Shown: positions 1 to 32,980, counted from the first letter of the stretch. The stretch is DNA of 64,000 nucleotides from Eimeria praecox (GCA_963920595.1 OY986947.1:4836001-4900000), one strand, 5' to 3'. The notes: generated by a model from the letters alone, not told the origin. Numbers and translations: made by a program.

Positions 1-3000
1 ACTAACCAACCTCCCATATGCATGTGCTATGCCCACTCCTCTCGCCCACATCAAACGCAAAATCAGCTGCACCTCAAATCACCTACGGCCCCAAAGAAAC
101 CAAATCATACACAAACCTGTCAGCCTCAACAACAATCAAACACACCGATGCTAACAAGGAGTGTCCTGTCCACCCACTTTCTCCTCCGTCTGAAACAGAA
201 TATCAAATAAACCACCCGCAAGTCCATTCCACACTCACATCCATCCTTGTACTGCCGTGCGCTTAAATGCACAAAGTCACCACACGCCCCCCCACAAAGC
301 ACCTCAAACCTCCAATACTAACCAAGAAAATGCTGAGCAAGTCCCCCAACACACACAACTAAACCTTGCAACTCCCTAACTCTACATACGGATTACGAAT
401 TCTAATTCCACATAAACACCACACACGCAACGACTAACCAACCTCCCATATGCATGTGCTATGAACCCTGCTTCCGCCCACACCAAACACAAAATCAGCT
501 GCACCTCAGATCACCTACGGCCCCAAAGAAACCAAATAATACACAAACCTGTCAGCCTCAACAACAATCAAACACACCGATGCTAACAAGGAGTGCCCTG
601 TCCACACACTTTCTCCTCCTTCTGAAACAGAATATCAAATAAACCACCCGCAAGTCCATTCCACACTCTCATGCATCCTTGTACTGCCGTGCGCTTAAGT
701 GCACAAAGTCACCACACGCCCCCCCACAAAGCACCTCAAACCTCCAATACTAACCAAGAAAATGCTGAGCAAGTCCCCCAACACACACAACTAAACCTTG
801 CAACTCCCTAACTCTACATAGCATCACGAATTCTAATTCCACATAAACACCACACACGCAACGACTAACCAACCTCCCATATGCATGTGCTATGCCCACT
901 CCTCTCGCCCACATCAAACCCAAAATCAGCTGCACCTCAAATCACCTACGGCCCCAAAGAAACCAAATAATACACACATCTGTCAGCCTCAACAACAATC
1001 ACACACACCGATGCTAACAAGGAGTGTCCTATCCACGCACTTTCTCCTCCTTCTGAAACAGAATATCAAATAAACCACCCGCAAGTCCATTCCACACTCA
1101 CATCCATCCTTGTACTGCAGTGCGCTTAAACGCACAAAGTCACCACACGCTCCCCCACAAAGCACATCAAACCACCAATACTAACAAAAAATAGAACCCA
1201 TATACCACCCTGCCAACACACCCAATCATCTTTCATTAGCGGTAAACAACGCACAGGCTCAGTTGGCTGAGAAAGTCCCCCAACACACACAACCAAACCA
1301 TGCAACTCCCCAATCCTACATACGTATCACGAATTCTAATTCCACGTACACACCACCCACGCAACGCCTAACCAACCTCCCATATGCATGTGCTATGCCC
1401 ACTCCTGTCGCCTACACTAAACACAAAATCAGCTGCACCTCAAATCACCTACGGCCCCAAAGAAACCAAATAATACACAAACCTGTCAGCCTCAACAACA
1501 ATCAAACACACCGATGCTAACAAGGAGTGTCCTGTCCACCCACTTTCTCCTCCGTCTGAAACAGAATATCAAATAAACCACCCGCAAGTCCATTCCACAC
1601 TCACATGCATCCTTGTACTGCAGTGCGCTTAAATGCACAAAGTCACCACACGCTCCCCCACAAAGCACCTCAAGCCTGCAATACTAACCAAGAAAATGCT
1701 GAGCAAGTCCCCCAACACACACAACTAAACCTTGCAACTCTCTAACTCTACATACGCATCACGAATTCTAATTCCACATAAACACCACACACGCAACGAC
1801 TAACCAACCTCCCATATGCATGTGCTATGAACCCTGCTTCCGCTCACACCAAACACAAAATCAGCTGCAACTCAAATCACCTACGGCCCCAAAGAAACCA
1901 AATAATACACAAATCTGTCAGCCTCAACAACAATCAAACACACCGATGCTAACAAGGAGTGTCCTGTCCACACACTTTCTCCTCCTTCTGAAACAGAATA
2001 TCAAATAAACCACCCGCAAGTCCATTCCACACTCTCATGCATCCTTGTACTGCCGTGCGCTTAAGTGCACAAAGTCACCACACGCCCCCCCACAAAGCAC
2101 CTCAAACCTCCAATACTAACCAAGAAAATGCTGAGCAAGTCCCCCAACACACACAACTAAACCTTGCAACTCCCTAACTCTACATAGCATCACGAATTCT
2201 AATTCCACATAAACACCACACACGCAACGACTAACCAACCTCCCATATGCATGTGCTATGCCCACTCCTCTCGCCCACATCAAACGCAAAATCAGCTGCA
2301 CCTCAAATCACCTACGGCCCCAAAGAAACCAAATAATACACAAATCTGTCAGCCTCAACAACAATCAAACACACCGATGCTAACAAGGAGTGCCCTGTCC
2401 ACACACTTTCTCCTCCTTCTGAAACAGAATATCAAATAAGGCACCCGCAAGTCCATTCCACACGCATATGCATCCTTGTACTGTAGTGCGCTTAAATGCA
2501 AAAAGTCACCACACGCTCCCCCACAAAGCACATCAAACCACCAATACTAACAAACAATAGAACGCATATACCACCCTGCCAACACACCCAATCATCCTTC
2601 ATTAGCGGTAAACAACGCACAGGCTCAGTTGGCTGAGAAAGTCCCCCAACACACACAACCAAACCATGCAACTCCCCAATCCTACATACGTATCACGAAT
2701 TCTAATTCCACGTACACACCACACACGCAACGACTAACCAACCTCCCATATGCATGTGCTATGCCCCCTGCTTCCGCCCACACCAAACACAAAATCAGCT
2801 GCACCTCAAATCACCTACGGCCCCAAAGAAACCAAATAATACACAAACCTGTCAGCCTCAACAACAATCAAACACACCGATGCTAACAAGGAGTGTCCTG
2901 TCCACCCACTTTCTCCTCCGTCTGAAACAGAATATCAAATAAACCACCCGCAAGTCCATTCCACACTCACATGCATCCTTGTACTGCAGTGCGCTTAAAT

Positions 3001-6000
3001 GCACAAAGTCACCACACGCCCCCCCACAAAGCACCTCAAACCTCCAATACTAACCAAGAAAATGCTGAGCAAGTCCCCCAACACACACAACTAAACCTTG
3101 CAACTCCCTAACTCTACATACGGATTACGAATTCTAATTCCACATAAACACCACACACGCAACGACTAACCAACCTCCCATATGCATGTGCTATGAACCC
3201 TGCTTCCGCCCACACCAAACACAAAATCAGCTGCACCTCAAATCACCTACGGCCCCAATGAAACCAAATAATACACAAATCTGTCAGCCTCAACAACAAT
3301 CACACACACCGATGCTAACAAGGAGTGCCCTGTCCACACACTTTCTCCTCCTTCTGAAACAGAATATCAAATAAACCACCCGCAAGTCCATTCCACACTC
3401 TCATGCATCCTTGTACTGCCGTGCGCTTAAGTGCACAAAGTCACCACACGCCCCCCCACAAAGCACCTCAAACCTCCAATACTAACCAAGAAAATGCTGA
3501 GCAAGTCCCCCAACACACACAACTAAACCTTGCAACTCCCTAACTCTACATAGCATCACGAATTCTAATTCCACATAAACACCACACACGCAACGACTAA
3601 CCAACCTCCCATATGCATGTGCTATGAACCCTGCTTCCGCTCACACCAAACACAAAATCAGCTGCACCTCAAATCACCTACGGCCCCAAAGAAACCAAAT
3701 AATACACAAATCTGTCAGCCTCAACAACAATCAAACACACCGATGCTAACAAGGAGTGTCCTGTCCACCCACTTTCTCCTCCTTCTGAAACAGAGTATCA
3801 AATAAACCACCCGCAAGTCCATTAAACACTCACATGCATCCTTGTACTGCCGTGCGCTTAAACGCACAAAGTCACCACACGCTCCCCCACAAAGCAGACC
3901 AAACCACCAATACTAACCAAGAAAATTCTGAGCAGGTCCCCCAACACACACAACCAAACCATGCAATTCCCTAACCCTACATAAGCATCGAGAATTCTAA
4001 TTCCACGTAAACACCACACACGCAACGACTAACCAACCTCCCATATGCATGTGCTATGCCCACTCCTCTCGCCCACATCAAACGCAAAATCAGCTGCACC
4101 TCAAATCACCTACGGCCCCAAAGAAACCAAATCATACACAAATCTGTCAGCCTCAACAACAATCACACACACCGATGCTAACAAGGAGTGCCCTGTCCAC
4201 ACACTTTCTCCTCCTTCTGAAACAGAATATCAAATAAACCACCCGCAAGTCCATTCCACACTCTCATGCATCCTTGTACTGCCGTGCGCTTAAGTGCACA
4301 AAGTCACCACACGCCCCCCCACAAAGCACCTCAAACCTCCAATACTAACCAAGAAAATGCTGAGCAAGTCCCCCAACACACACAACTAAACCTTGCAACT
4401 CCCTAACTCTACATACGGATTACGAATTCTAATTCCACATAAACACCACACACGCAACGACTAACCAACCTCCCATATGCATGTGCTATGAACCCTGCTT
4501 CCGCCCACACCAAACACAAAATCAGCTGCACCTCAAATCACCTACGGCCCCAATGAAACCAAATAATACACAAATCTGTCAGCCTCAACAACAATCAAAC
4601 ACACCGATGCTAACAAGGAGTGTCCTGTCCACACATTTTCTCCTCCTTCTGAAACAGAGTATCAAATAAACCACCCGCAAGTCCATTCCACACTCCCATC
4701 CATGCTTGTACTGCCGTGCGCTTAAGTGCACAAAGTCACCACACGCCCCCCCACAAAGCACCTCAAACCTCCAATACTAACCAAGAAAATGCTGAGCAGG
4801 TCCCCCAACACACACAACTAAACCTTGCAACTCCCTAACTCTACATAGCATCACGAATTCTAATTCCACATAAACACCACACACGCAACGACTAACCAAC
4901 CTCTCATATGCATGTGCTATGAACCCTGCTTCCGCCCACACCAAACACAAAATCAGCTGCACCTCAAATCACCTACGGCCCCAAAGAAACCAAATAATAC
5001 ACAAATCTGTCAGCCTCAACAACAATCACACACACCGATGCTAACAAGGAGTGTCCTGTCCACGCACTTTCTCCTCCTTCTGAAACAGAATATCAAATAA
5101 ACCACCCGCAAGTCCATTCCACACTCACATCCATCCTTGTACTGCAGTGCGCTTAAATGCACAAAGTCACCACACGCTCCCCCACAAAGCACATCAAACC
5201 ACCAATACTAACAAAAAATAGAACCCATATACCACCCTGCCAACACACCCAATCATCCTTCATTAGCGGTAAACAACGCACAGGCTCAGTTGGCTGAGCA
5301 AGTCCCCCAACACACACAACCAAACCATGCAACTCCCCAATCCTACATACGTATCACGAATTCTAATTCCACGTACACACCACCCACGCAACGACTAACC
5401 AACCTCCCATATGCTCGTGGTATGCCCACTCCTGTCGCCTACACTAAACACAAAATCAGCTGCACCTCAAATCACCTACGGCCCCAAAGAAACCAAATCA
5501 TACACAAACCTGTCAGCCTCAACAACAATCAAACACACCGATGCTAACAAGGAGTGTCCTGTCCACCCACTTTCTCCTCCGTCTGAAACAGAATATCAAA
5601 TAAACCACCCGCAAGTCCATTCCACACTCACATCCATCCTTGTACTGCCGTGCGCTTAAATGCACAAAGTCGCCACACGCCCCCCCACAAAGCACCTCAA
5701 ACCTCCAATACTAACCAAGAAAATGCTGAGCAAGTCCCCCAACACACACAACTAAACCTTGCAACTCCCTAACTCTACATACGGATTACGAATTCTAATT
5801 CCACGTAAACACCACCCACGCAACGCCTAACCAACCTCCCATATGCATGTGCTATGAACCCTGCTTCCGCCCACACCAAACACAAAATCAGCTGCACCTC
5901 AAATCACCTACGGCCCCAATGAAACCAAATCATACACAAATCTGTCAGCCTCAACAACAATCAAACACACCGATGCTAACAAGGAGTGTCCTGTCCACGC

Positions 6001-9000
6001 ACTTTCTCCTCCGTCTGAAACAGAATATCAAATAAACCACCCGCAAGTCCATTCCACACTCACATGCATCCTTGTACTGCCGTGCGCTTAAATGCACAAA
6101 GTCACCACACGCCCCCCCACAAAGCACCTCAAACCTCCAATACTAACCAAGAAAATGCTGAGCAAGTCCCCCAACACACACAACTAAACCTTGCAACTCC
6201 CTAACTCTACATACGGATTACGAATTCTAATTCCACATAAACACCACACACGCAACGACTAACCAACCTCCCATATGCATGTGCTATGAACCCTGCTTCC
6301 GCCCACACCAAACACAAAATCAGCTGCACCTCAAATCACCTACGGCCCCAATGAAACCAAATAATACACAAATCTGTCAGCCTCAACAACAATCAAACAC
6401 ACCGATGCTAACAAGGAGTGTCCTGTCCACGCACTTTCTCCTCCTTCTGAAAAAGAATATCAAATAAACCACCCGCAAGTCCATTCCACACTCACATCCA
6501 TCCTTGTACTAAAGTGCGCTTAAATGCACAAAGTCACCACACGCCCCCCCACAAAGCACCTCAAACCTCCAATACTAACCAAGAAAATGCTGAGCAAGTC
6601 CCCCAACACACACAACTAAACCTTGCAACTCCCTAACTGTACATAGCATCACGAATTCTAATTCCACATAAACACCACACACGCAACGACTAGCCAACCT
6701 CCCATATGCATGTGCTATGAACCCTGCTTCCGCCCACACCAAACACAAAATCAGCTGCACCTCAAATCACCTACGGCCCCAAAGAAACCAAATAATACAC
6801 AAATCTGTCAGCCTCAACAACAATCAAACACACCGATGCTAACAAGGAGTGTCCTGTCCACGCACTTTCTCCTCCGTCTGAAACAGAATATCAAATAAAC
6901 CACCCGCAAGTCCATTCCACACTCACATCCATCCTTGTACTGCCGTGCGCTTAAATGCACAAAGTCACCACACGCCCCCCCACAAAGCACCTCAAACCTC
7001 CAATACTAACCAAGAAAATGCTGAGCAAGTCCCCCAACACACACAACTAAACCTTGCAACTCCCTAACTCTACATACGGATTACGAATTCTAATTCCACG
7101 TAAACACCACCCACGCAACGCCTAACCAACCTCCCATATGCATGTGCTATGAACCCTGCTTCCGCCCACACCAAACACAAAATCAGCTGCACCTCAAATC
7201 ACCTACGGCCCCAATGAAACCAAATCATACACAAATCTGTCAGCCTCAACAACAATCAAACACACCGATGCTAACAAGGAGTGTCCTGTCCACACACTTT
7301 CTCCTCCGTCTGAAACAGAATATCAAATAAACCACCCGCAAGTCCATTCCACACTCACATCCATCCTTGTACTGCCGTGCGCTTAAATGCACAAAGTCGC
7401 CACACGCCCCCCCACAAAGCACCTCAAACCTCCAATACTAACCAAGAAAATGCTGAGCAAGTCCCCCAACACACACAACTAAACCTTGCAACTCCCTAAC
7501 TGTACATAGCATCACGAATTCTAATTCCACATAAACACCACACACGCAACGACTAACCAACCTCCCATATGCATGTGCTATGAACCCTGCTTCCGCCCAC
7601 ACCAAACACAAACTCAGCTGCACCTCAAATCACCTACGGCCCCAAAGAAACCAAATAATACACAAACCTGTCAGCCTCAACAACAATCAAACACACCGAT
7701 GCTAACAAGGAGTGTCCTGTCCACACACTTTATCCTCCTTCTGAAACAGAATATCAAATAAGCCACCCGCAAGTCCATTTCACACTCGCATCCATCCTTG
7801 TACTGCAGTGCGCTTAAACGCACAAAGTCACCGCACGCTCCCCCACAAAGCACATCAAACCACCAATACTAACAAAAAATAGAACCCATATACCACCCTG
7901 CCAACACACCCAATCATCTTTCATTAGCGGTAAACAACGCACAGGCTCAGTTGGCTGAGAAAGTCCCCCAACACACACAACCAAACCATGCAACTCCCCA
8001 ATCCTACATACGTATCACGAATTCTAATTCCACGTACACACCACCCACGCAACGACTAACCAACCTCCCATATGCTCGTGGTATGCCCACTCCTGTCGCC
8101 TACACTAAACACAAAATCAGCTGCACCTCAAATCACCTACGGCCCCAAAGAAACCAAATAATACACAAACCTGTCAGCCTCAACAACAATCAAACACACC
8201 GATGCTAACAAGGAGTGTCCTGTCCACGCACTTTCTCCTCCGTCTGAAACAGAATATCAAATAAACCACCCGCAAGTCCATTCCACACTCACATCCATCC
8301 TTGTACTGCCGTGCGCTTAAATGCACAAAGTCGCCACACGCCCCCCCACAAAGCACCTCAAGCCTCCAATACTAACCAAGAAAATGCTGAGCAAGTCCCC
8401 CAACACACACAACTAAACCTTGCAACTCCCTAACTCTACATACGGATTACGAATTCTAATTCCACATAAACACCACACACGCAACGACTAACCAACCTCC
8501 CATATGCATGTGCTATGAACCCTGCTTCCGCCCACACCAAACACAAAATCAGCTGCACCTCAAATCACCTACGGCCCCAATGAAACCAAATAATACACAA
8601 ATCTGTCAGCCTCAACAACAATCAAACACACCGATGCTAACAAGGAGTGTCCTGTCCACGCACTTTCTCCTCCTTCTGAAACAGAATATCAAATAAACCA
8701 CCCGCAAGTCCATTCCACACTCACATCCATCCTTGTACTAAAGTGCGCTTAAATGCACAAAGTCACCACACGCCCCCCCACAAAGCACCTCAAACCTCCA
8801 ATACTAACCAAGAAAATGCTGAGCAGGTCCCCCAACACACACAACTAAACCTTGCAACTCCCTAACTGTACATACGGATTACGAATTCTAATTCCACATA
8901 AACACCACACACGCAACGACTAACCAACCTCCCATATGCATGTGCTATGCCCACTCCTGTCGCCCACATCAAACGCAAAATCAGCGGCGCCTCAAATCAC

Positions 9001-12000
9001 CTACGGCCCCAAAGAAACCAAATCATACACAAACCTGTCAGCCTCTACAACAATCAAACACACCGATGCTAACAAGGAGTGTCCTGTCCACGCACTTTCT
9101 CCTCCTTCTGAAACAGAATATCAAATAAGCCACCCGCAAGTCCATTCCACACTCACATCCATCCTTGTACTGCAGTGCGCTTAAATGCACAAAGTCACCA
9201 CACGCCCCCCCACAAAGCACCTCAAACCTCCAATACTAACCAAGAAAATGCTGAGCAAGTCCCCCAACACACACAACTAAACCTTGCAACTCCCTAACTC
9301 TACATACGGATTACGAATTCTAATTCCACATAAACACCACACACGCAACGACTAACCAACCTCCCATATGCATGTGCTATGAACCCTGCTTCCGCCCACA
9401 CCAAACACAAAATCAGCTGCACCTCAAATCACCTACGGCCCCAATGAAACCAAATAATACACAAATCTGTCAGCCTCAACAACAATCAAACACACCGATG
9501 CTAACAAGGAGTGTCCTGTCCACACACTTTCTCCTCCTTCTGAAACAGAATATCAAATAAGCCACCCGCAAGTCCATTCCACACGCATATGCATCCTTGT
9601 ACTGCCGTGCGCTTAAATGCACAAAGTCACCACACGCTCCCCCACAAAGCACACCAAACCACGAATACTAACCAAGAAAATGCTGAGCAAGTCCCCCAAC
9701 ACACACAACTAAACCTTGCAACTCCCTAACTGTACATACGCATCACGAATTCTAATTCCACATAAACACCACACACGCAACGACTAACCAACCTCCCATA
9801 TGCATGTGCTATGCCCCCTGCTTCCGCCCACACCAAACACAAAATCAGCTGCACCTCAAATCACCTACGGCCCCAATGAAACCAAATAATACACAAATCT
9901 GTCAGCCTCAACAACAATCAAACACACCGATGCTAACAAGGAGTGTCCTGTCCACACACTTTCTCCTCCTTCTGAAACAGAATATCAAATAAGCCACCCG
10001 CAAGTCCATTCCACACGCATATGCATCCTTGTACTGCCGTGCGCTTAAATGCACAAAGTCACCACACGCTCCCCCACAAAGCACACCAAACCACGAATAC
10101 TAACCAAGAAAATGCTGAGCAAGTCCCCCAACACACACAACTAAACCTTGCAACTCCCTAACTGTACATACGCATCACGAATTCTAATTCCACATAAACA
10201 CCACACACGCAACGACTAACCAACCTCCCATATGCATGTGCTATGAACCCTGCTTCCGCCCACACCAAACACAAAATCAGCTGCACCTCAAATCACCTAC
10301 GGCCCCAATGAAACCAAATAATACACAAATCTGTCAGCCTCAACAACAATCAAACACACCGATGCTAACAAGGAGTGTCCTGTCCACGCACTTTCTCCTC
10401 CTTCTGAAACAGAATATCAAATAAACCACCCGCAAGTCCATTCCACACTCACATCCATCCTTGTACTGCAGTGCGCTTAAATGCACAAAGTCACCACACG
10501 CCCCCCCACAAAGCACCTCAAACCTCCAATACTAACCAAGAAAATGCTGAGCAAGTCCCCCAACACACACAACTAAACCTTGCAACTCCCTAACTCTACA
10601 TACGGATTACGAATTCTAATTCCACATAAACACCACACACGCAACGACTAACCAACCTCCCATATGCATGTGCTATGAACCCTGCTTCCGCCCACACCAA
10701 ACACAAACTCAGCTGCACCTCAAATCACCTACGGCCCCAAAGAAACCAAATAATACACAAACCTGTCAGCCTCAACAACAATCAAACACACCGATGCTAA
10801 CAAGGAGTGTCCTATCCACGCACTTTCTCCTCCGTCTGAAACAGAATATCAAATAAACCACACGCAAGTCCATTTCACACTCGCATCCATCCTTGTACTG
10901 CAGTGCGCTTAAACGCACAAAGTCACCGCACGCTCCCCCACAAAGCACATCAAACCACCAATACTAACAAAAAATAGAACCCATATACCACCCTGCCAAC
11001 ACACCCAATCATCTTTCATTAGCGGTAAACAACGCACAGGCTCAGTTGGCTGAGAAAGTCCCCCAACACACACAACCAAACCATGCAACTCCCCAATCCT
11101 ACATACGTATCACGAATTCTAATTCCACGTACACACCACCCACGCAACGACTAACCAACCTCCCATATGCTCGTGGTATGCCCACTCCTGTCGCCTACAC
11201 TAAACACAAAATCAGCTGCACCTCAAATCACCTACGGCCCCAAAGAAACCAAATAATACACAAACCTGTCAGCCTCAACAACAATCAAACACACCGATGC
11301 TAACAAGGAGTGTCCTGTCCACCCACTTTCTCCTCCGTCTGAAACAGAATATCAAATAAACCACCCGCAAGTCCATTCCACACTCACATCCATCCTTGTA
11401 CTGCCGTGCGCTTAAATGCACAAAGTCGCCACACGCCCCCCCACAAAGCACCTCAAACCTCCAATACTAACCAAGAAAATGCTGAGCAAGTCCCCCAACA
11501 CACACAACTAAACCTTGCAACTCCCTAACTCTACATACGGATTACGAATTCTAATTCCACATAAACACCACACACGCAACGACTAACCAACCTCCCATAT
11601 GCATGTGCTATGAACCCTGCTTCCGCCCACACCAAACACAAAATCAGCTGCACCTCAAATCACCTACGGCCCCAATGAAACCAAATAATACACAAATCTG
11701 TCAGCCTCAACAACAATCAAACACACCGATGCTAACAAGGAGTGTCCTGTCCACGCACTTTCTCCTCCTTCTGAAACAGAATATCAAATAAACCACCCGC
11801 AAGTCCATTCCACACTCACATCCATCCTTGTACTAAAGTGCGCTTAAATGCACAAAGTCACCACACGCCCCCCCACAAAGCACCTCAAACCTCCAATACT
11901 AACCAAGAAAATGCTGAGCAGGTCCCCCAACACACACAACTAAACCTTGCAACTCCCTAACTGTACATACGGTTTACGAATTCTAATTCCACATAAACAC

Positions 12001-18000: not shown

Positions 18001-21000
18001 CACACTCACATGCATCCTTGTACTGCAGTGCGCTTAAACGCACAAAGTCACCACACGCTCCCCCACAAAGCACATCAAACCACCAATACTAACAAAAAAT
18101 AGAACCCATATACCACCCTGCCAACACACCCAATCATCCTTCATTAGCGGTAAACAACGCACAGGCTCAGTTGGCTGAGAAAGTCCCCCAACACACACAA
18201 CCAAACCATGCAATTCCCTAACCCTACATAAGCATCGCGAATTCTAATTCCACGTAAACACCACACACGCAACGACTAACCAACCTCCCATATGCATGTG
18301 CTATGCCCACTCCTGTCGCCCACATCAAACGCAAAATCAGCGGCGCCTCAAATCACCTACGGCCCCAAAGAAACCAAATCATACACAAACCTGTCAGCCT
18401 CAACAACAATCAAACACACCGATGCTAACAAGGAGTGTCCTGTCCACCCACTTTCTCCTCCTTCTGAAACAGAATATCAAATAAGCCACCCGCAAGTCCA
18501 TTCCACACTCACATCCATCCTTGTACTAAAGTGCGCTTAAATGCACAAAGTCGCCACACGCCCCCCCACAAAGCACCTCAAACCTCCAATACTAACCAAG
18601 AAAATGCTGAGCAAGTCCCCCAACACACACAACTAAACCTTGCAACTCCCTAACTCTACATACGGATTACGAATTCTAATTCCACATAAACACCACACAC
18701 GCAACGACTAACCAACCTCCCATATGCATGTGCTATGAACCCTGCTTCCGCCCACACCAAACACAAAATCAGCTGCACCTCAAATCACCTACGGCCCCAA
18801 TGAAACCAAATAATATACAAATCTGTCAGCCTCAACAACAATCAAACACACCGATGCTAACAAGGAGTGTCCTGTCCACGCACTTTCTCCTCCTTCTGAA
18901 ACAGAATATCAAATAAGCCACCCGCAAGTCCATTCCACACGCATATGCATCCTTGTACTGCCGTGCGCTTAAATGCACAAAGTCACCACACGCTCCCCCA
19001 CAAAGCACACCAAACCACCAATACTAACCAAGAAAATGCTGAGCAAGTCCCCCAACACACACAACTAAACCTTGCAACTCCCTAACTCTACATACGCATC
19101 ACGAATTCTAATTCCACATAAACACCACACACGCAACGACTAACCAACCTCTCATATGCATGTGCTATGCCCCCTGCTTCCGCCCACACCAAACACAAAA
19201 TCAGCTGCACCTCAAATCACCTACGGCCCCAAAGAAACCAAATCATACACAAATCTGTCAGCCTCAACAACAATCAAACACACCGATGCTAACAAGGAGT
19301 GTCCTATCCACGCACTTTCTCCTCCTTCTGAAACAGAATATCAAATAAACCACCCGCAAGTCCATTCCACACTCACATGCATCCTTGTACTGCAGTGCGC
19401 TTAAACGCACAAAGTCACCACACGCTCCCCCACAAAGCACATCAAACCACCAATACTAACAAAAAATAGAACCCATATACCACCCTGCCAACACACCCAA
19501 TCATCCTTCATTAGCGGTAAACAACGCACAGGCTCAGTTGGCTGAGAAAGTCCCCCAACACACACAACCAAACCATGCAATTCCCTAACCCTACATAAGC
19601 ATCGCGAATTCTAATTCCACGTAAACACCACACACGCAACGACTAACCAACCTCCCATATGCATGTGCTATGCCCACTCCTCTCGCCCACATCAAACGCA
19701 AAATCAGCTGCACCTCAAATCACCTACGGCCCCAAAGAAACCAAATCATACACAAACCTGTCAGCCTCAACAACAATCAAACACACCGATGCTAACAAGG
19801 AGTGTCCTGTCCACGCACTTTCTCCTCCTTCTGAAACAGAATATCAAATAAGCCACCCGCAAGTCCATTCCACACTCACATCCATCCTTGTACTGCAGTG
19901 CGCTTAAATGCACAAAGTCACCACACGCTCCCCCACAAAGCACATCAAACCACCAATACTAACCAGGAAAATGCTGAGCAGGTCCCCCAACACACACAAC
20001 CAAACCATGCAATTCCCTAACCCTACATAAGCATCGCGAATTCTAATTCCACGTAAACACCACACACGCAACGACTAACCAACCTCCCATATGCATGTGC
20101 TATGCCCACTCCTGTCGCCCACATCAAACGCAAAATCAGCTGCACCTCAGATCACCTACGGCCCCAATGAAACCAAATCATACACAAATCTGTCAGCCTC
20201 AACAACAATCAAACACACCGATGCTAACAAGGAGTGTCCTGTCCACGCACTTTCTCCTCCTTCTGAAACAGAATATCAAATAAGCCACCCGCAAGTCCAT
20301 TCCACACGCATATGCATCCTTGTACTGCCGTGCGCTTAAATGCACAAAGTCACCACACGCTCCCCCACAAAGCACACCAAACCACCAATACTAACCAAGA
20401 AAATGCTGAGCAAGTCCCCCAACACACACAACTAAACCTTGCAACTCCCTAACTCTACATACGCATCACGAATTCTAATTCCACATAAACACCACACACG
20501 CAACGACTAACCAACCTCTCATATGCATGTGCTATGAACCCTGCTTCCGCCCACACCAAACACAAAATCAGCTGCACCTCAAATCACCTACGGCCCCAAT
20601 GAAACCAAATCATACACAAACCTGTCAGCCTCAACAACAATCAAACACACCGATGCTAACAAGGAGTGTCCTATCCACGCACTTTCTCCTCCTTCTGAAA
20701 CAGAATATCAAATAAGGCACCCGCAAGTCCATTCCACACTCACATCCATCCTTGTACTGCAGTGCGCTTAAACGCACAAAGTCACCACACGCTTCCCCAC
20801 AAAGCACATCAAACCACCAATACTAACAAAAAATAGAACCCATATACCACCCTGCCAACACACCCAATCATCCTTCATTAGCGGTAAACAACGCACAGGC
20901 TCAGTTGGCTGAGAAAGTCCCCCAACACACACAACCAAACCATGCAACTCCCCAATTCTACATACGTATCACGAATTCTAATTCCACGTACACACCACCC

Positions 21001-23333
21001 ACGCAACGACTAACCAACTTCGCATATGCATGTGCTATGAACCCTGCTTCCGCCCACACAAAACACAAAATCAGCTGCACCTCAAATCACCTACGGCCCC
21101 AATGAAACCAAATAATACACAAATCTGTCAGCCTCTACAACAATCAAACACACCGATGCTAACAAGGAGTGTCCTGTCCACGCACTTTCTCCTCCTTCTG
21201 AAACAGAATATCAAATAAGCCACCCGCAAGTCCATTCCACACTCACATCCATCCTTGTACTGCCGTGCGCTTAAATGCACAAAGTCACCACACGCCCCCC
21301 CACCAAGCACACCAAACCTCCAATACTAACCAAGAAAATGCTGAGCAAGTCCCCCAACACACACAACTAAACCTTGCAACTCCCTAACTCTACATACGTA
21401 TCACGAATTCTAATTCCACATAAACACCACCCACACAACGACTAGCCAACCTCCCATATGCATGTGCTATGAACCCTGCTTCCGCCCAGACCAAACACAA
21501 AATCAGCTGCACCTCAAATCACCTACGGCCCCAATGAAACCAAATAATACACAAATCTGTCAGCCTCAACAACACTCAAACACACCGATGCTAACAAGGA
21601 GTGTCCTGTCCACACACTTTCTCCTCCTTCTGAAACAGAGTATCAAATAAACCACCCGCAAGTCCATTCCACACGCATATGCATCCTTGTTGCCGTGCGC
21701 TTAAACGCACAAAGTCACCACACGCTCCCCCACAAAGCACACCAAACCACCAATACTAACCAACAAAATGCTGAGCAAGTCCCCCAACACACACAACCAA
21801 ACCATGCAATTCCCTAACCCTACATAAGCATCGCGAATTCTAATTCCACGTAAACACCACCCACGCAACGACTAACCAACCTCCCATATGCATGTGCTAT
21901 GCCCACTCCTCTCGCCCACATCAAACGGAAAATCAGCTGCACCTCAAATCACCTACGGCCCCAATGAAACCAAATCATACACAAACCTGTCAGCCTCAAC
22001 AACAATCAAACACACCGATGCTAACAAGGAGTGTCCTGTCCACGCACTTTCTCCTCCTTCTGAAACAGAATATCAAATAAACCACCCGCAAGTCCATTCC
22101 ACACTCACATCCATCCTTGTACTGCAGTGCGCTTAAATGCACAAAGTCACCACACGCTCCCCCACAAAGCACATCAAACCACCAATACTAACAAAAAATA
22201 GAACCCATATACCACCCTGCCAACACACCCAATCATCCTTCATTAGCGGTAAACAACGCACAGGCTCAGTTGGCTGAGAAAGTCCCCCAACACACACAAC
22301 CAAACCATGCAACTCCCCAATCCTACATACGTATCACGAATTCTAATTCCACGTACACACCACCCACGCAACGACTAACCAACCTCCCATATGCACGTGG
22401 TATGCCCACTCCTGCTGCCTACACTAAAGACAAAATCAGCTGCACCTCAAATCACCTACGGCCCCAAAGAAACCAAATAATACACAAACCTGTCAGCCTC
22501 AACAACAATCAAACACACCGATGCTAACAAGGAGTGTCCTGTCCACACACTTTCTCCTCCGCCTGAAACAGAATATCAAATAAACCACCCGCAAGTCCAT
22601 TCCACACTCACATGCATCCTTGTACTAAAGTGCGCTCAAATGCACAAAGTCACCACACGCCCCCCCACAAAGCACCTCAAACCTCCAATACTAACCAAGA
22701 AAATGCTGAGCAAGTCCCCCAACACACACAACCAAAACATGCAACTCCCTAACCCTACATAAGCATCGCGAATTCTAATTCCACGTACACACCACCCACG
22801 CAACGACTAACCAACCTCTCATATGCATGTGCTATGCCCACTCCTCTCGCCCACATCAAACACAAAATCAGCTGCACCTCAAATCACCTACGGCCCCAAA
22901 GAAACCAAATCATACACAGACCTGTCAGTCTCAACAACAATCAAACACACCGATGCTAACAAGGAGTGTCCTGTCCACGCACTTTCTCCTCCTTCTGAAA
23001 CAGAGTATCAAATAAACCACCCGCAAGTCCATTCCACACTCACATGCATCCTTGTACTGCAGTGTGCTCAAATGCACAAAGTCACAACACACCCACCCAC
23101 AAAGCACCTCAAACCACCAGTAGTAACAAATAGAAGAACCCATATACCATCCCACTAACGCACCCAATCATCCTTCATAAGCGGTAAACACCCAACGCAC
23201 AGGCTCAGTTGGCTGAACCAGTCCCCCAACACACACAACCAAACCATGCAACTCCCCAACCCTACATACGCATCACGAATTCTAATAACACATAAACACC
23301 ACTCGCACAACGCCTAACCAACCTCCCATATGC
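1..23333. repeat. Homogeneous tandem array, 52 units of 430-432 bp or 503-507 bp (continues beyond the left edge of the window)
   Basis: The anchor CATATGCATGTGCTATG and the recurring 62-aa pseudo-ORF start at 22, 454, 885, (1388), 1820, 2251 ... 22827. Spacings are 432, 431 (six units), 430 (one unit), 503 (eleven units with a ~71-bp extra segment) and 507. The plus strand is strongly A/C-rich. There is one GAATTC per unit. Confidence 0.98.
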
Positions 23334-26300
23334 ATGTGCTATGCCCACTCCTGTCGCCCACACTAAACATAAAATCAGCTGTACCTCAAATCACTGAGCC
23401 CCCCAAAGAAACCAAATGCACGAGTCTTTCCTTCTGCCGAACAGTTAAGCAGGCCCACGGCAATAAGTCGTATCCTGTCTACTCACCCTCTGGAGCTATT
23501 GATAGACGGCCTGAGCTAAACCCAGCAGCAAATTAATACCACAGGCTCATGCCTCCTCGTACCCCAGGGACCCTAAATACGCCAAGCCACCCGTAAATGC
23601 CCTCGCTCAGTTAAGCATCTGCTCGATCTAAGCCTCTGCACAACACAACCTACATGCCCAGCCCGCGACTCCCCAGTCAGCTCATCAGCATACCAACCCA
23701 CGCCTACTCTACCCACTACCATCCACAAACGCCTAAATCCAAATGCGCGCACTCCCAATCACCACTATCACCACTTCCCCGTATAAGCACAGCTGGCCCA
23801 TCTACCAAACGCCCCCTCCCGTCTACCCCGAACACCTACACACCTTCCTCTCCAACCCCACAACGCTTGGCACAAACAAACACAACCCAGTCACCAGCAC
23901 CGCAACACCGCATACAACCATCTGGATACCGCCCCACCCTTACACCCAGAATCTGGCAACCAAATGAATGCACCAAGCTCTTCCTAAAGATCATTCCCAA
24001 GACGCCATTACTCCAGCAAATACAGACCGCCTACCTCCCTTCCTTACCAAATTCCCAACTGCTCCTAGGCTAATTCCTCATTGCATTCAACGCATTTCCA
24101 TTCCCCCCTTCACCAACCACCTCAAGCCACCAATACTAACCCAGTAACGAACCCACCTACCGTCCCCCCAGCACACCCAATCATCCATCATTAGCGGTGA
24201 GCCGCCAACGCACCGGCTGAGCGGTCTGGAGAAGTCCCCAACACACACAGCCAACGCATACAGCTACCTAGCTCTATCTACCCTTCATAGTCTCCATATA
24301 TACGCCACCCATACAATGGTAACCCAGCCTCGCATATGCATGTGCTATGCCCACTGCTGTTGCCCGCACAAAACGCAAAATCAGCTGCACCTCAAATTAT
24401 CTACGCTCCTAAAGGAACCAAATACACGCCCCCCCCTTCTGTCCAGCAATTAAGCACACCGGCCTCAATAAGTCACGTTCTGTCTACTCACCCTCTGGAG
24501 ATCCTGAAGTACGGACTCAGCTAAGCCCACCCGCAGGTCAATTCGACACTCGCATGCCTCCTCGTACCCCAGGGACCCTAAATACACCAAGCCACCCGTA
24601 AATGCCCTTGCTCAGTTAAGCATCTGCTCGATCTAAGCCTCTGCACAACACAACCTACATGCCCAGCCCGCGACTCCCCAGTCAGCTCATCAGCATACCA
24701 ACCCACGCCTACTCTATCCACTACCATCCACAAACGCCTAAATCCAAATGCGCGCACTCCCAATCACCACTATCACCACTTCCCCGTATACGCACAGCTG
24801 GCCCATCTACCAAACGCCCCCTACCGTCTACCCCGAACACCTACACACCTTCCTCTCCAACCCCACAACGCTTGGCACAAACAAGCACAACCCAGTCACC
24901 AGCACCGCAACACCGCATACAACCATCTGGATACCGCCCCACCCTTACACCCAGAATCTGGCAACCAAATGAATGCACCAAGCTCTTCCTAAAGATCATT
25001 CCCAAGACGCCATCGCTCCAGCAAACAAACATAAGCCACTCCCCCCGCGTCTGATTCTCCCCTCCGCCCTCGCTCATTCCTCATTGCACACCACACATCT
25101 TCACTCTCCCCTCCAACGAGCAACTCAAACCACCAATACTAACAAAAAAAAAGAATCCATATGCCATCCCGCTAAGCAATCACCCATCATTAGTGATGAA
25201 CTCCCAACGCACCAGCTTAGTCGGCTGAACAAGTCCTCCAACACACAGAACCAAAGCATGCAACTGCCAAAATCTACGCCTTGCCTATCCCCCACCAAAT
25301 CCACATATACGCCACCCGTGCAACGCTAACCCAGCCTCGCATATGCATATGCTATGCCCACTCCTGTCGCCCACACAAAACACAAAATCAGCTGCACCTC
25401 AAATCACCTACGGCCCCAAAGAAACCAAATCCACGGCCCCCCTTTCTGCCAATCACACAATTAAGCGCACCGACGACAATAAGTCGTATCCTGTCTACTC
25501 ACCCTCTGGGGCTATTGATACACGGCCTGAACTAAACCCAGCAACAAATTCATACCACACTCTCATGCCTCCTCGTACCCCAGGGACCCTAAATACACCA
25601 AGCCACCCGTAAATGCCCTTGCTCAGTTAAGCATCTGCTCGATCTAAGCCTCTGCACAACACAACCTACATGCCCAGCCCGCGAATCCCCAGTCAGCTCA
25701 TCAGCATACCAACCCACGCCTACTCTATCCACTACCATCCACAAACGCCTAAATCCAAATGCGCGCACTCCCAATCACCACTATCACCACTTCCCCGTAT
25801 ACGCACAGCTGGCCCATCTACCAAACGCCCCCTACCGTCTACCCCGAACACCTACACACCTTCCTCTCCAACCCCACAACGCTTGGCACAAACAAGCACA
25901 ACCCAGTCACCAGCACCGCAACACCGCATACAACCATCTGGATACCGCCCCACCCTTACACCCAGAATCTGGCAACCAAATGAATGCACCAAGCTCTTCC
26001 TAAACATCCTTCCCAAGACGCCATTACTCCAGCAAATACAGATCGCCTACCCCCCTTCCTTGCCGAATTCACCACTCGTCCTACGCCAATTTCTCATTGC
26101 ATTCAACACCCCTCCATTCCCCTCTTCACCAACCACCTCACACCGCCAATACTAACCCACTAACAAACTAATCTGCCATCATCCCAACACACCCGTTCAT
26201 CCTTCATTAGCGGTAAACTCAGTTGGCTGAACAAGTCCCCCAACACACAACCAAAGCATGCAACTCCCTAACTCTACATACGCATCGCGAATTCTAATTC

Positions 26301-27523
26301 CACATAAACACCACACACGCAACGCCTAACCAACCTCCCATATGCATGTGCTATGCCCACTCCTCTCGCCCACATCAAACGCAAAATCAGCTGCACCTCA
26401 AATCACCTGCGGCCCCAAAGAAACCAAATAATACACAAACCTGTCAGTCTCAACAACAATCAGACACACCGATGCTAACAAGGAGTGCCCTGTCCACACA
26501 CTTTCTCCTCCTTCTGAAACAGAGTATCAAATAAATCCACCCGCAAGTCCATTCCACATTCTCATGCATCCTTGTACTGCCGTGCGCTCAAATACACGAA
26601 GTCTGCACATGCCCCTCCACAAAGCACCTCAAACCACCAATGCTAACAAATAAAAGAACCAATATGCCATCCCACCAACGCACCCATTCATCTTGCATTA
26701 GCGGTAAACACCCAACGCACAGGCTCAGTTGGCTGAACAAGTCCCCCAACACACACAACCAAAACATGCAACTCCCCAACCCTACATACGCATCACGAAT
26801 TCTAATTCCACATAAACACCACCCACGCAACGCCTAACCAACCTCCCATATGCATGTGCTGTGCCCACTCCCGTCGCCCGCATCAAACGCAAAATCAGCT
26901 GCACCTCAAATCACCTGCGGCCCCAAAGAAACCAAATAATGCACAAACCTGTCAGTCTCAACAACAATCAGACACACCGATGCTAACAAGGAGCGTCCTG
27001 TCCACACACTTTCTCCTCCTTCTGAAACAGAGTATCAAATAAATCCACCCGCAAGTCCATTCCACATTCTCATGCATCCTTGTACTGCCGTGCGCTCAAA
27101 TACACGAAGTCTGCACATGCCCCTCCACAAAGCACCTCAAACCACCAATGCTAACAAATAAAAGAACCAATATGCCATCCCACCAACGCACCCATTCATC
27201 CTGCATTAGCGGTAAACACCCAACGCACAGGCTCAGTTGGCTGAACAAGTCCCCCAACACACACAACCAAAACATGCAACTCCCTAACTCTGCATACGCA
27301 TCACGAATTCTAATTCCACATAAACACCACCCACGTAACGCCTAACCAACCTCGCATATGCATGTGCTATGACCACTCCCGTCGCCCACATCAAACGCAA
27401 AATCAGCTGCACCTCAAATCACCTAAGCTCCCAGCTAAACTAAATACACGAACCTGCCATCCGCAACACTCGATCACATTGACACGAACAAATAGTGTCT
27501 TCTCCACCCACTTTCTGATCCTC
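178..27523 (-). CDS. Putative chain of 9-12-nt micro-exons embedded in the tandem array (hypothesis)
   Basis: Minus-strand YAG|exon|GT cassettes: TEEK 178-189, KEEK 1041-1052, KEDK 7729-7740, AEEK 22551-22562, DLQR 24492-24503, EDQK 27512-27523; PTEP 1255-1266 and 2621-2632, TAQP 24214-24225, PTKL 25213-25224; KERL 23422-23433. No transcript evidence is available. Confidence 0.45.
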
Positions 27524-27600
27524 CTGAAGCAGGGACTCAAGCCAGCCCGGCCGCACGTCCACTCTACATTCCGATGGGTGCTTGCAAATTAGCTCTACCA
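23334..27600. repeat. Diverged proximal end of the same array: three ~1.0-kb units (near 23334, 24340, 25347), two 508-bp units (26346, 26854) and a partial unit (27362)
   Basis: The same anchors (AATCAGCTGCACCTCAAAT, CCAATACTAAC, CATTAGCGGT) recur with many substitutions. The 1-kb units contain an additional ~0.5-kb internal block repeated three times (ORF MPSPR... at 23654, 24659, 25670). Confidence 0.93.
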
Positions 27601-28022
27601 AACACAAGCAGTCAGCCTCAAGGGCCCCCATCTAGGTAGGTTTCTGCTCGGTTCGCTTCAGCACACCAACCCGCGCCTCCATCCACTACCATAGACAAGT
27701 GCTATGCATCAACTTGGCCCACTCGCGGCCGCAACTGCCCTGTCGTCTCACGGGCCCGCCAGTCTGGCGGTTTTCCACTGCAAAGTACGCTAAGGAAGCG
27801 CATTTCTTTTCTTCTTATCGCCACCGCAGGGGCCCAAACGCTCACAACCCACGCAGCAAGACCGGATGCACGCGCCTGCCTATCACCGCGAAATACGACG
27901 GAAATGCTGGCATCCAAAGCACCGGCCTGCAGCCGGCAGTGGAAGACCCGTAAGCCATCCGTGTCCTGTTGGGGAACGGTCGCTGTCCCTGCTTCAGGTG
28001 TTAGGGGAGATGGTCGGCATAC

Positions 28023-28424
28023 TCCTTCTTTGCTAGCTCCATCCACCTCGTCTTCAGATCCTTTAGCTGTTTCACTTTGAGCCTCTTCAGGCGTCTGCTC
28101 CGGAGAAGAGGTTCTTAAGCTAAAAATGCCCATTGCCGCAAAAACAGCAAGAAGGGCGAGGCCAACGGCAGCCGCCACGGGTCCTTTGGAACCACCGCGA
28201 GTTATGGAATGTGGAGCTTCGGCTCCTTCTAATGAGGCTTGTTGCTCAGCCGGGGCCCTAGGTTCGATCTCTTCCGGACTATGAGCCCCGAAGTCTAGCG
28301 TTCCAACGGCCGCATCTGCATTTGGCAGAAGTGAAACGTCGGCAGCTTCCCCACAAAGTCCCGCCACTGTGAGAACTGCAACCCATCCCAGCCAACGAAA
28401 TGCCGGTGAGCTTACGACCGTCAT
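28023..28424 (-). CDS. Probable first exon of a secreted/membrane protein (signal peptide, transmembrane helix, acidic segment); if unspliced the ORF runs to 27702 (240 aa)
   Basis: ATG in an AAAATG context. MTVVSSPAFRWLGWVAVLTVAGLCGEA looks like a signal peptide and PVAAAVGLALLAVFAAMGIFSL like a TM helix, followed by PEQTPEEAQSETAKGSEDEVDGASKEG. A candidate phase-0 donor GGA|GTATGC lies at 28023/28022. Confidence 0.7.
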
Positions 28425-31400: not shown

Positions 31401-32980
31401 GGTATATGCAGATGCGCTCAACAGTGTCTTTTAATTCACCTATCGGTGGCTGTTGTACATTGGCGTTTCTGGCGCTTGCAGACTCCGCTCATGTTCTCCG
31501 GATGCTGCACTCTGGCAAGAGGTTCATCTTTATTTTTATCGTGGTTCTTATGCCTGCAATAAAAGGGCCTATCAGTCCTCATAAATGGCAGCATTCCTCT
31601 ACTTGACCGGTGGACACGCTGCTGGTTGGGCACGCTCTCGCGAGCTGCGAGTAAACAGCAGCAGCAGCATACTACGGCTGCATTTCCCCGGATTATCATC
31701 AGCATTTCGCATGGACAGCCAGGCACACGATGGCATTTGTCATTTGGGGAAGACGGCGATGCTGATGTATCTTGCTCTGCGTGATGCTGCTACCCGTATC
31801 CCTGCTTGTTCGCAGGCTCTCTATGGACAGTCTAGTCTTTAACGGCAATCTACACTACAGTCTCAAAAAAGGGGAGTGGCTCTGCAGGCATGTGGCGCTG
31901 CTTTGCATCCGTTGCTGCGGCAAGGTTCGTTGCAGCGCATGACAGGCTGGCCAGTATCTTCCCTTAGTCTAGCCCCTTACGCCACTGTGCCCACGGTGCG
32001 TGGATGCTGGGGATAATCAGCTGGGGAGATCAGCATATTGGGGGGAATCATTTTCTTGACATATTTGGCTCTATTGGAGCTACTAACGGTCTTACGCTAA
32101 GATCGAGGACTAGGACCCGTTGCAACTTCAGATAGACAGTACTGCAGCATGCTACAGAAACGATCCAACGAGCAAGGACAGCAAAGCAAAGCTGATAGCC
32201 TTCTAGGTTTAGCCATGACAATGGAAATTCACTACGTACCCTCTACTGCTCGACCATTCCCAAGCCAGCTTTCTTCTTGGCTAAGGCGGTGGAATTGGTG
32301 TTCTTCGCCTCTCTGACGCATAAATCCTCCATCACTTCGGCGCGTTACATCCTTTCACCTTTCAATTTCCTCTGTGGGACCTAGCCTGTTATCGACTGCC
32401 CCTCTCCAAGGGTCAACCCTACTGTAAGCCCTGAATAGGGATGTTCTGGGTCTACCGTTTATTGGGCATCTGTTCATCAGCGGCTGGCACTTCTCAGTGT
32501 ATCACTCTATCCGCAGCTTCCATTGCTTGAGCTTCATCAGCATTTATGTCATAGCCTGCTTGCCGGCCTGGGGATAAACCTACATCGAAGCGCGCTTTAA
32601 GGCTCCCATACTCCTGATGTGCTTCGGGAAAGCAGTGAGGTTACTGACCGTTGATCACAGTTGCCATGCCCCCTCTTCTAATATGGAGAATGCCAACCGC
32701 AATTGCAGCTGTTCGGGGGAAAGGGAACGTGCAACTCGTGGGAAGCAAGGAACTGTTCCTGTGCCCCTGTCCCGCGACGTTCGTTATATCTTAAGGTCAG
32801 CATAGGCTCAGGCCTTGTTCATGAATTGTTTTGCTGTAGGACCAATATCCACTAATTGAATGCAGATGTTGTGCTTGTTTCAAGGTGGGAGGGCGCCCAG
32901 AAGTTGGTCACTTCCCCACTGAAGAGCACATACTGGGCAATCTCCAGCGTGCGAAAACGAAGGGAGAAGATCTTCGGGAG

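What the first reader, a model, noticed from the sequence alone, without database searches (positions are those of the whole stretch)
1..28424. The 27-kb 'satellite' may be a giant tandemly amplified micro-exon gene for a secreted/membrane protein
Seen: on the minus strand the 430-508 bp units contain ...TTTGATATTCTGTTTCAG | 12 nt | GT(G/C/T)GT-type donor (GTGGGT, GTGCGT, GTGTGT). That is a branch-like TTGAT, a pyrimidine tract, CAG, a 12-nt block and a donor. The interior varies while AG, GT and the spacing hold: AAGGAGGAGAAA KEEK (1041-1052), ACGGAGGAGAAA TEEK (178-189), KEDK (7729-7740), AEEK (22551-22562), and in strongly diverged units DLQR (24492-24503, GTGAGT donor) and EDQK (27512-27523). 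A second cassette, CAG | 12 nt | GTGCGT, gives PTEP (1255-1266 and other long units), TAQP (24214-24225) and PTKL (25213-25224). All are stop-free in phase 0, whereas phase 1 gives stops in the KEDK and PTEP cassettes. The array starts ~0.4 kb downstream, same strand, of an exon encoding signal peptide + TM + E/K/P/T-rich sequence that ends in a phase-0 donor (28023). The minus strand is G/T-rich, which is intron-like. Established: micro-exon genes made of short symmetric exons encode variant secreted proteins in Schistosoma. Inference: roughly 70 four-codon exons could build a charged repeat domain whose length and sequence vary by exon skipping and unequal crossover. Gene finders and repeat maskers would probably miss this.
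Basis: partly seen in the sequence, partly recalled or inferred. Interest (0 to 1): 0.92.

Follow-up and report, generated by a model that had tools for sequence, protein, structure and literature searches.

The report
Giant micro-exon gene disguised as satellite
A 27-kb tandem repeat in a likely Eimeria parasite genome carries 73 intact 9-12-base cassettes bounded by splice-type signals behind an exon for a predicted membrane protein, and is likely one giant micro-exon gene that gene finders missed, though no RNA confirms it yet.

Summary
Observation confirmed at every coordinate given. The array holds 58 units (window cuts it at base 1) with 73 intact AG|9-12 nt|GT cassettes: 57 of 58 type A (KEEK and variants), 16 of 57 type B (PTEP and variants). 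In the most diverged unit 0 of 16 splice-signal positions changed against 13-14 of 24 cassette bases and about 30% of the rest (Fisher p 0.0003). All cassette donors match the U1-type consensus as well as or better than 14 neighbouring introns. Exon 1 (28424-28023; predicted signal peptide plus transmembrane helix) has relatives only in Eimeria mitis and E. brunetti; all three public models read through a 'V-C' (GTNTGY) point and then lose their charged composition. Against: no RNA run holds the gene; AG..GT pairs are common here (56 per unit); a third 12-nt cassette carries a stop; two old units offer a 24-nt stop-bearing acceptor; 40 short units keep an orphan acceptor; no last exon is in the window. 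Best reading (0.62): a micro-exon gene built by tandem amplification of an exon-intron unit, giving a long E/K/P/T tail. Exon skipping is untested. No apicomplexan micro-exon gene was found in ten literature searches.

The parts
28023..28424 (-). Exon 1, 134 codons: predicted signal peptide (about aa 1-27), spacer, predicted transmembrane helix (about aa 83-101), E/S/T/K/P-rich tail
   Evidence: Open frame; hydropathy peaks at windows 15 and 83; relatives in E. brunetti and E. mitis. Signal peptide read from hydropathy only, no SignalP run
28017..28022 (-). Phase-0 donor GTATGC, read through as 'V-C-R' in the public 240-aa model
   Evidence: public model P0001 equals ORF 27702-28424
27524..28022 (-). 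Predicted intron 1, 499 nt
27512..27523 (-). First type-A cassette, EDQK, CAG / GTGGGT
27229..27240 (-). First type-B cassette, PTEP, CAG / GTGCGT
26115..27100 (-). Two 508-bp-type units: KEEK 27010-27021, PTEP 26721-26732, KEEK 26502-26513; the B cassette of the second has lost its donor by a 15-nt deletion
23575..26120 (-). Three about 1-kb super-units: a 500-bp spacer nearly identical over its central 430 bp, alternating with strongly diverged units; each spacer holds a candidate 9-nt cassette ILG (CAG / GTAAGG) at 25960-25968, 24949-24957, 23944-23952
   Evidence: the ILG cassette is a candidate only, identical in all three copies so not testable by divergence
25503..25511 (-). Type-A cassette with shifted acceptor, 9 nt PQR, TAG / GTGAGT; in-frame alternatives of 3 nt and 24 nt (the latter with a stop)
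25213..25224 (-). Type-B variant PTKL
24492..24503 (-). Type-A variant DLQR, CAG / GTGAGT
24214..24225 (-). Type-B variant TAQP
23487..23495 (-). Type-A cassette with shifted acceptor, 9 nt LQR; same 3-nt and stop-bearing 24-nt alternatives
23201..23212 (-). Type-B cassette PTEP
1..23072 (-). Young homogenised array: 11 long (503 bp, A+B) and 40 short (430-432 bp, A only) units plus one unit cut by the window edge; KEEK, TEEK, AEEK, KEDK, PTEP
4637..4648 (-). KEEK cassette with broken donor (ATGTGT), the only one of 58 type-A cassettes
390..401 (-). Example of the third AG|12|GT cassette with an in-frame stop (NS*S, TAG / GTATGT); likely not an exon

Best explanation
The array is likely the 3' body of one gene whose 134-codon first exon encodes a predicted signal peptide and transmembrane helix, and whose 73 or more phase-0 cassettes of 9-12 bases would be spliced into a long E/K/P/T-rich tail, the array having grown by tandem duplication of an exon-plus-intron unit. 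Shown: the cassettes, their splice-type signals, their conservation pattern, the unit history (old diverged units next to exon 1, young homogenised units further out, exact duplications up to 1152 bp, a 71-bp deletion that removed exon B and then spread to 40 units). Inferred: that the spliceosome uses them; that the product is a single-pass secretory-pathway protein of at least about 420 aa (134 + 290 residues; 41% E, 33% K, 11% P, 9% T in the cassettes, net charge -23) with a low-complexity, probably disordered tail ending in an exon outside the window; that unequal crossover changes tail length between clones while symmetric exons let skipping keep the frame; and that the tail acts at the host-parasite interface (vacuole membrane or surface) as a charged spacer or immunodominant repeat.
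For: Splice positions (-3..-1, +1, +2, +3, +5, +6 of both cassettes) differ at 0 or 1 of 16 sites in all 15 pairwise comparisons among six unit lineages, while cassette interiors differ at 1-14 of 24 and the rest at 39-132 of 423; most diverged unit: 0/16 vs 13/24, Fisher p 0.0003, and 0.0035 against local background. Sequence-blind rank 5 and 13 of 448; the stop-bearing cassette ranks 87. A and B are 2 of only 3 strong pairs among 56. 73 of 73 intact donors score 5-6 of 6 to GTRAGT against 3-5 for 14 of 14 neighbouring introns; predicted introns 202-990 nt against 100-421; acceptor pyrimidine counts within the neighbours' range. 15 of 17 changed codons among cassette variants are non-synonymous and none makes a stop. 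16 distinct indels in the unit alignment, 12 not multiples of three, none inside an intact cassette. AG-free zone of 30 nt or more before acceptor B in 15 of 16 units that keep exon B, but new AGs in 36 of 41 that lost it (linked sites, not independent events). Where acceptor A was destroyed a new one lies exactly 3 nt away, and every AG within 24 nt of the A donor is in frame in 7 of 7 units inspected. The E. mitis and E. brunetti models also show 'V-C-Q' straight after the charged tail; the DEKPTSQ share falls from 0.77/0.83/0.60 before to 0.36/0.34/0.44 after, and the remainder is 106, 35 and 18 aa; anchored alignments favour VC=VC over the alternative (54 vs 38, 8 vs -11). Cassette composition continues the exon-1 tail. 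No long frame on either strand of the array (longest 174 codons).
Against: No transcript or spliced protein was seen. None of the 14 neighbouring introns uses exactly GTGCGT, GTGTGT or GTGGGT, and those introns were read by eye (only the RPL10 model was checked: 222 aa against 221 in Toxoplasma). The old units are only about four partly related lineages and are patchworked by conversion, so the p-values overstate independence; other blocks of the unit that are not cassettes are also highly conserved. In the PQR and LQR units an upstream CAG gives a 24-nt in-frame exon with a stop. 40 short units keep an orphan B acceptor that reads HFLG* if used. Several other phase-0 donors lie further down the 240-aa frame, one scoring 5/6 (27845). 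Unconstrained BLASTP and MAFFT align the E. mitis tail with the stretch after the donor rather than before it, and the read-through stretch itself is similar between the two species (score 29), which also fits a conserved longer exon. The DNA of the two relatives could not be read, so arrays behind them are not shown. The last exon is outside the window.
Confidence: 0.62

Rival explanations
1. It is a real micro-exon gene, but only the first few old cassettes are translated: the 24-nt stop-bearing acceptor at 25526 or 23510, or an orphan B acceptor, ends the protein at about 160 aa, and the young 23-kb array is a runaway amplification lying in the 3' UTR or in a decaying part of the gene.
For: Stop-bearing in-frame CAG acceptors in two old units with pyrimidine counts equal to or above the 9-nt option; orphan acceptor in 40 short units; one broken donor and one deleted B donor tolerated; young units are too alike for their conservation to prove selection (only 21% of columns polymorphic).
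Against: 51 of 52 young units keep donor A and none has a stop in a cassette; no young unit pairs the AG-rich upstream haplotype with an intact exon B (0 of 11), although recombinant units exist; the strongest conservation signal includes the DLQR/TAQP unit, which lies after the first stop option.
Confidence: 0.18
2. The array is ordinary minisatellite or satellite DNA beside a single-exon gene for a 240-aa membrane protein (the public model); the cassettes are chance AG..GT pairs on a GT-rich strand.
For: 56 YAG|3-30|GT pairs per long unit; a third 12-nt cassette has a stop; the public annotation is one 240-aa ORF; the read-through stretch resembles the E. mitis one.
Against: Fixed flanks around hypervariable, stop-free 12-mers in diverged units; in-frame acceptor shift; composition break and unequal lengths after 'V-C' in all three species; the array starts 499 nt behind the donor on the same strand and is intron-like in G+T content.
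Confidence: 0.17
3. The array is an assembly artefact, a plus-strand coding repeat or a structured RNA cluster.
For: The commonest period (432) is a multiple of three and the plus strand has short ORFs.
Against: Periods of 430, 431, 502, 503 and 508 break any frame and every frame has over 260 stops; contigs of sequencing runs X1 and X2 hold the unit variants, one 107-nt piece at 10.5 times single-copy depth against 9.5 copies in the window (one sample, possibly the source of the assembly; depth is a rough guide only); 0 Rfam matches in 22000-30000.
Confidence: 0.03

Closest known systems
Schistosoma micro-exon genes (MEGs)
   Same: Short, mostly symmetric exons after a signal-peptide exon; secreted or membrane-anchored products; missed by automatic annotation; rapid non-synonymous change (PMC10526429 passages; PMC5825161 passages).
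   Different: No sequence relation found; MEGs have 10-20 different exons of 6-81 bp with unlike introns, here 73 or more near-identical 12-nt exons sit in a homogenised tandem unit; MEG variation by alternative splicing is shown, here it is untested; different phylum.
Aphid bicycle and megacycle genes
   Same: Many small exons all of one phase, putative effectors, megacycle has over 100 micro-exons (bioRxiv 10.1101/2021.09.24.461719 passages).
   Different: Those exons are phase 2 and encode CYC motifs; here phase 0, cysteine-free, with a transmembrane helix, and the introns are themselves repeat copies.
Human LPA kringle IV-2 array (recalled, no call)
   Same: A two-exon exon-plus-intron unit amplified in tandem and homogenised, so that copy number sets protein length.
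   Different: Unit of several kb with ordinary exons encoding a folded domain; here 0.43-0.5 kb units with four-codon exons, 3% of the array exonic.
Apicomplexan vacuole-membrane proteins such as Plasmodium ETRAMP/EXP1 and Toxoplasma GRA5/GRA6 (architecture recalled, no call)
   Same: Signal peptide, spacer, one transmembrane helix, charged low-complexity C-terminal tail.
   Different: No sequence match (Pfam 0 hits for exon 1 and both relatives); their tails are not built from micro-exons as far as recalled; localisation here untested.
Eimeria uncharacterised proteins EMH_0025100 (E. mitis) and CDJ50769.1 (E. brunetti)
   Same: True relatives of exon 1 (35% and 39%, E 1e-6 and 3e-7), same layout and same 'V-C' read-through point.
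   Different: Annotated as short 176- and 168-aa proteins; whether arrays follow them could not be read. The UniRef label 'SAG family member' on the E. mitis protein is not supported (see membership test).

Membership tests
Micro-exon gene, Schistosoma MEG type | Most of the coding region made of short symmetric exons (about 80%, 6-36 bp; PMC5825161) | tested here: inconclusive
   Predicted cassettes are 9-12 nt, all multiples of three, and would give 290 of about 424 residues (68%) within the window; exon status not shown by RNA
Micro-exon gene, Schistosoma MEG type | N-terminal signal peptide; secreted or membrane-anchored product | tested here: inconclusive
   Hydropathy peaks 1.71 (N-terminal) and 2.52 (aa 83-101); no signal-peptide predictor or localisation available; the E. 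brunetti model lacks the N-terminal peak
Micro-exon gene, Schistosoma MEG type | Protein variants produced by alternative splicing of the central exons | not testable with these tools
   No RNA holder listed; both laid runs behave as DNA
Micro-exon gene, Schistosoma MEG type | Homology to schistosome MEG families | tested here: not met
   HMMER over 1.84 billion representatives gave 3 hits, the window's own ORF and two Eimeria proteins; so at most convergent
Aphid bicycle genes | Internal exons nearly all phase 2, CYC motifs | tested here: not met
   Phase 0 by the exon-1 donor; no cysteine in any cassette
Eimeria SAG surface antigens | Four or six conserved cysteines in the extracellular domain, GPI addition site, four or five exons (PMC4199364) | tested here: not met
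   One cysteine in 134 aa, central transmembrane helix, no Pfam hit
Eimeria esf1-esf6 families | Listed membership; multi-copy; no signal peptide (PMC4199364 Table S6, Data set S1) | tested here: not met
   EMH_0025100 absent from the E. mitis rows of Data set S1 and from the 6 supplement files searched (file 1 could not be searched); only one relative per species found
Non-coding satellite or minisatellite | Head-to-tail units with no position-specific constraint tied to a gene | tested here: not met
   Tandem structure is met, but constraint falls on splice-type positions around variable 12-mers; few independent lineages

The most novel reading that the evidence does not exclude
Eimeria has its own micro-exon gene system, the first in Apicomplexa: a conserved single-pass protein gene whose tail is assembled from 70 or more four-codon exons held in a satellite-like array, with tail length set between clones by unequal crossover and between molecules by exon skipping and tandem-acceptor choice; such genes would be hidden under repeat masks in other apicomplexan genomes.
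Probability: 0.3. Interest if true: 0.9.

Novelty: new variant of a known kind. Interest (0 to 1): 0.72.

Why it matters
If spliced as predicted, this is a micro-exon gene in a phylum where none turned up in the searches made, and an extreme one: a 28-kb or longer gene whose repeat region is 3% coding and looks like satellite DNA to every masker. It would show that a protozoan spliceosome chains dozens of 12-nt exons, correct three public gene models that stop in intron 1, and give a rapidly changing repeat antigen candidate and length marker in a livestock parasite genus. It also gives a simple rule (fixed AG/GT around variable 3n cores in tandem units behind a signal-peptide exon) to screen other 'satellites'. 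One RT-PCR or long-read run decides it.

Tried and rejected
Whole genome: none held, so the last exon and paralogues could not be sought. Runs: 2 listed, no RNA holder listed; this blank says nothing on expression. Laying X1 and X2 on 27300-29000 gave flat cover across exon and intron and no joints, as for DNA. Word-based protein searches: 0 hits at 73-235 aa among 210 candidates; only the window's own ORF among 4554 longer candidates; only the same 3 proteins among 7996 with a three-sequence profile; no spliced form found, weak evidence. Metagenome scan: 501 pattern matches, 0 confirmed. ESM Atlas: best score 0.87, bacterial hypothetical clusters, below the lead threshold. Pfam: 0 families for exon 1 and both relatives. 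Rfam: 0. Earlier findings of the scan: nothing in 3 look-ups. Rejected: TTGAT as branch point (not kept in old units); the NS* cassette as an exon (stop, rank 87); a 13-nt CAG..GTGAGT pair just before cassette A (donor absent in old units); A half and B half of the unit as ancient duplicates (scores within shuffles, 28-130 of 300); an internal duplication around the two candidate donors (191 of 1000 shuffles as good); a paralogue at 39074-39427 (no tblastn match); plus-strand coding. No structure was predicted: a three-sequence, low-complexity alignment would not inform.


Full report
Setting. The window is eukaryotic and apicomplexan-like: neighbouring spliced genes encode RPL10, an M20 peptidase, BCAS2 and PIG-L, the best solved relative of RPL10 is the chain 5xxb_I (that this is Toxoplasma is recalled), CAG-type repeats abound, and the only relatives of the gene in question are from Eimeria brunetti and E. 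mitis. The genus Eimeria is therefore inferred; the species was not determined. No whole genome was held.

Observation. The array runs from about 27600 to base 1, where the window cuts it, and consists of 58 units: three near exon 1 (87-100% like the reference unit), three strongly diverged ones (72-80%) separated by 500-bp spacers that are nearly identical to each other, and 52 young units, 11 long (503 bp), 40 short (430-432 bp) and one cut by the edge. Type-A cassettes: 42 KEEK (1 with a broken donor), 10 TEEK, and one each of EDQK, DLQR, AEEK, KEDK, PQR and LQR (the last two 9 nt). Type-B cassettes: 14 PTEP, PTKL, TAQP, intact in 16 of 57 assessable units. In all 73 of 74 have GT. They make up 3.2% of the array and would add 290 residues. 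Contigs of two runs of one sample hold the unit variants, and a 107-nt piece has 10.5 times single-copy depth against 9.5 copies in the window, so the array is real and probably does not run much further; depth is only a rough guide and the sample may be the assembly's source.

Is it more than chance? But only three pairs combine 6 or more acceptor pyrimidines with a 5/6 donor, and two are A and B; the third is 5 nt and kept in 1 of 5 old units. Across six unit lineages the 16 splice-type positions differ at 0 or 1 site in all 15 pairs, while cassette interiors differ at up to 14 of 24 and the rest at up to 132 of 423. For the most diverged unit this is 0 of 16 against 13 of 24 (Fisher p 0.0003; 0.0035 against local background). 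Ranked blind to sequence among 448 windows, A is 5th, B 13th and the stop cassette 87th. The lineages are few and related, and non-cassette blocks of the unit are also well conserved, so these figures overstate independence. Of 17 changed codons among the variants 15 are non-synonymous and none is a stop. Of 16 distinct indels in the alignment 12 are not multiples of three and none lies inside an intact cassette. Where exon B is kept, 15 of 16 units have an AG-free zone of 30 nt or more before its acceptor; where it was deleted, 36 of 41 carry new AGs there (linked changes). In two old units acceptor A was destroyed and a TAG lies 3 nt downstream; every AG within 24 nt of donor A is in frame in 7 of 7 units inspected.

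Fit to this organism's splicing. Fourteen introns of four neighbouring genes were read by eye; the RPL10 model gives 222 aa against 221 for 5xxb_I, the others were not checked. Their donors score 3-5 of 6 to GTRAGT, the 73 cassette donors 5-6; their lengths are 100-421 nt, the predicted array introns 202-990; their acceptors hold 6-11 pyrimidines of 12, cassette acceptors 6-8; they are 47-64% G+T, the array 71%. None of the 14 uses exactly GTGCGT, GTGTGT or GTGGGT.

Exon 1 and its relatives. The 134-codon exon has an N-terminal hydrophobic stretch and a strong one at aa 83-101, then an acidic tail ending at GGA|GTATGC. The public model of this gene is the 240-aa read-through ORF. The two relatives, E. 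brunetti CDJ50769.1 and E. mitis EMH_0025100, show 'V-C-Q' (necessarily GTNTGY) just after their charged tails; after it composition turns mixed and length is 18 and 35 aa against 106 here. Anchored alignments prefer VC=VC (54 vs 38; 8 vs -11), but free BLASTP and MAFFT place the E. mitis tail after the donor, and the read-through stretch is itself similar between species, so a conserved donor is likely, not proven. Their DNA could not be read. No spliced form was found in three word-based searches and one full HMMER search.

Problems for full read-through. In the PQR and LQR units an upstream CAG gives a 24-nt in-frame exon with a stop; 40 short units keep an orphan acceptor that reads HFLG*; one donor A is broken and one donor B deleted; other phase-0 donors lie further down the 240-aa frame; no terminal exon is visible. 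No RNA holder was listed, which is no evidence either way.

How it most likely works. An ancestral gene with exon 1 and a few four-codon phase-0 exons had a two-exon unit of about 500 bp duplicated in tandem; old copies diverged with splice sites held and interiors changing; a 71-bp deletion removed exon B in one copy, and long and short units then expanded by unequal crossover, as the irregular long/short order and exact duplications of up to 1152 bp show. Inferred: the spliceosome joins the cassettes into a tail of 290 or more residues, 74% E+K with PTEP breaks, behind a single membrane anchor; symmetric exons make loss, gain or skipping harmless to the frame, so length varies between clones and perhaps between transcripts; the tail likely serves as a charged spacer or repeat antigen at the surface or vacuole membrane. 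Probability 0.62; real gene but early stop 0.18; satellite beside a single-exon gene 0.17; artefact or other 0.03.

Comparison with what is known. It works like a Schistosoma MEG in layout (short symmetric exons, secreted or anchored products, missed by annotation; PMC10526429 and PMC5825161, passages only) and recalls the aphid megacycle gene in exon number (bioRxiv 10.1101/2021.09.24.461719, passages only), but it is homologous to neither, and its exons and introns are copies of one unit, closer in mechanism to the LPA kringle array (recalled). It is not a SAG and its E. mitis relative is not listed in esf1-6 (PMC4199364: passages; supplement searches and one part of supplement 5; supplement file 1 could not be searched). 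PMC9141347 and PMC12309413 (passages) say nothing on such a gene in the passages seen. Searches for Eimeria with micro-exon, microexon or short exons gave 0 papers, the relatives' accessions 0; listings for apicomplexa or Toxoplasma with these words showed no apicomplexan micro-exon gene (listings only). Subscription papers and preprint supplements were not searched.

Verdict. Observation confirmed; interpretation partly supported, with splicing untested. New variant of a known kind; interest 0.72; 0.9 if a variable, genus-wide micro-exon system is shown.

Noticed in passing
window 25960-25968, 24949-24957, 23944-23952 (-): Candidate third exon type in each spacer: CAG | 9 nt (ILG) | GTAAGG, strong on both sides, identical in the three copies.
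   Followed up: partly
window 23575-26120: The three spacers are about 99% identical over 430 bp while the cassette-bearing units between them differ by 20-30%: patchy gene conversion or selection for exon diversity.
   Followed up: partly
unit alignment columns about 183-260, e.g. window 27395-27425 and 27350-27370 (-): Two intronic blocks are nearly invariant even in the most diverged units; possible splicing enhancers or conversion tracts. TGCATG lies upstream of acceptor B in 15 of 16 intact units and is lost in 36 of 41 units without exon B.
   Followed up: partly
window 47945 region (-), RPL10 intron 1: The first intron of RPL10 appears to use a GC donor (GCAAGC); the model is open and of the right length with it.
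   Followed up: partly
window 34650-38000 (-): Multi-exon M20 peptidase (amidohydrolase) gene with an N-terminal hydrophobic stretch and a poly-Q insert.
   Followed up: no
window 29628-29720, 31059-31259, 31765-31947: Short dispersed repeats in both orientations upstream of exon 1, 65-80% alike; possibly remnants of a small mobile element.
   Followed up: no
window 32983-33049 and 28875-28903: A perfect (TA)33 run and an 8-bp tandem repeat 450 bp upstream of the start codon.
   Followed up: no
window 54050-55603 (-) and 61280-62900 (+): BCAS2/SPF27 splicing-factor gene and PIG-L gene (GPI anchor synthesis) with CAG-type homopolymer inserts.
   Followed up: no
P0003 (E. mitis EMH_0025100): UniRef names it 'SAG family member', but it has a central transmembrane helix and no Pfam match; the label looks wrong.
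   Followed up: partly
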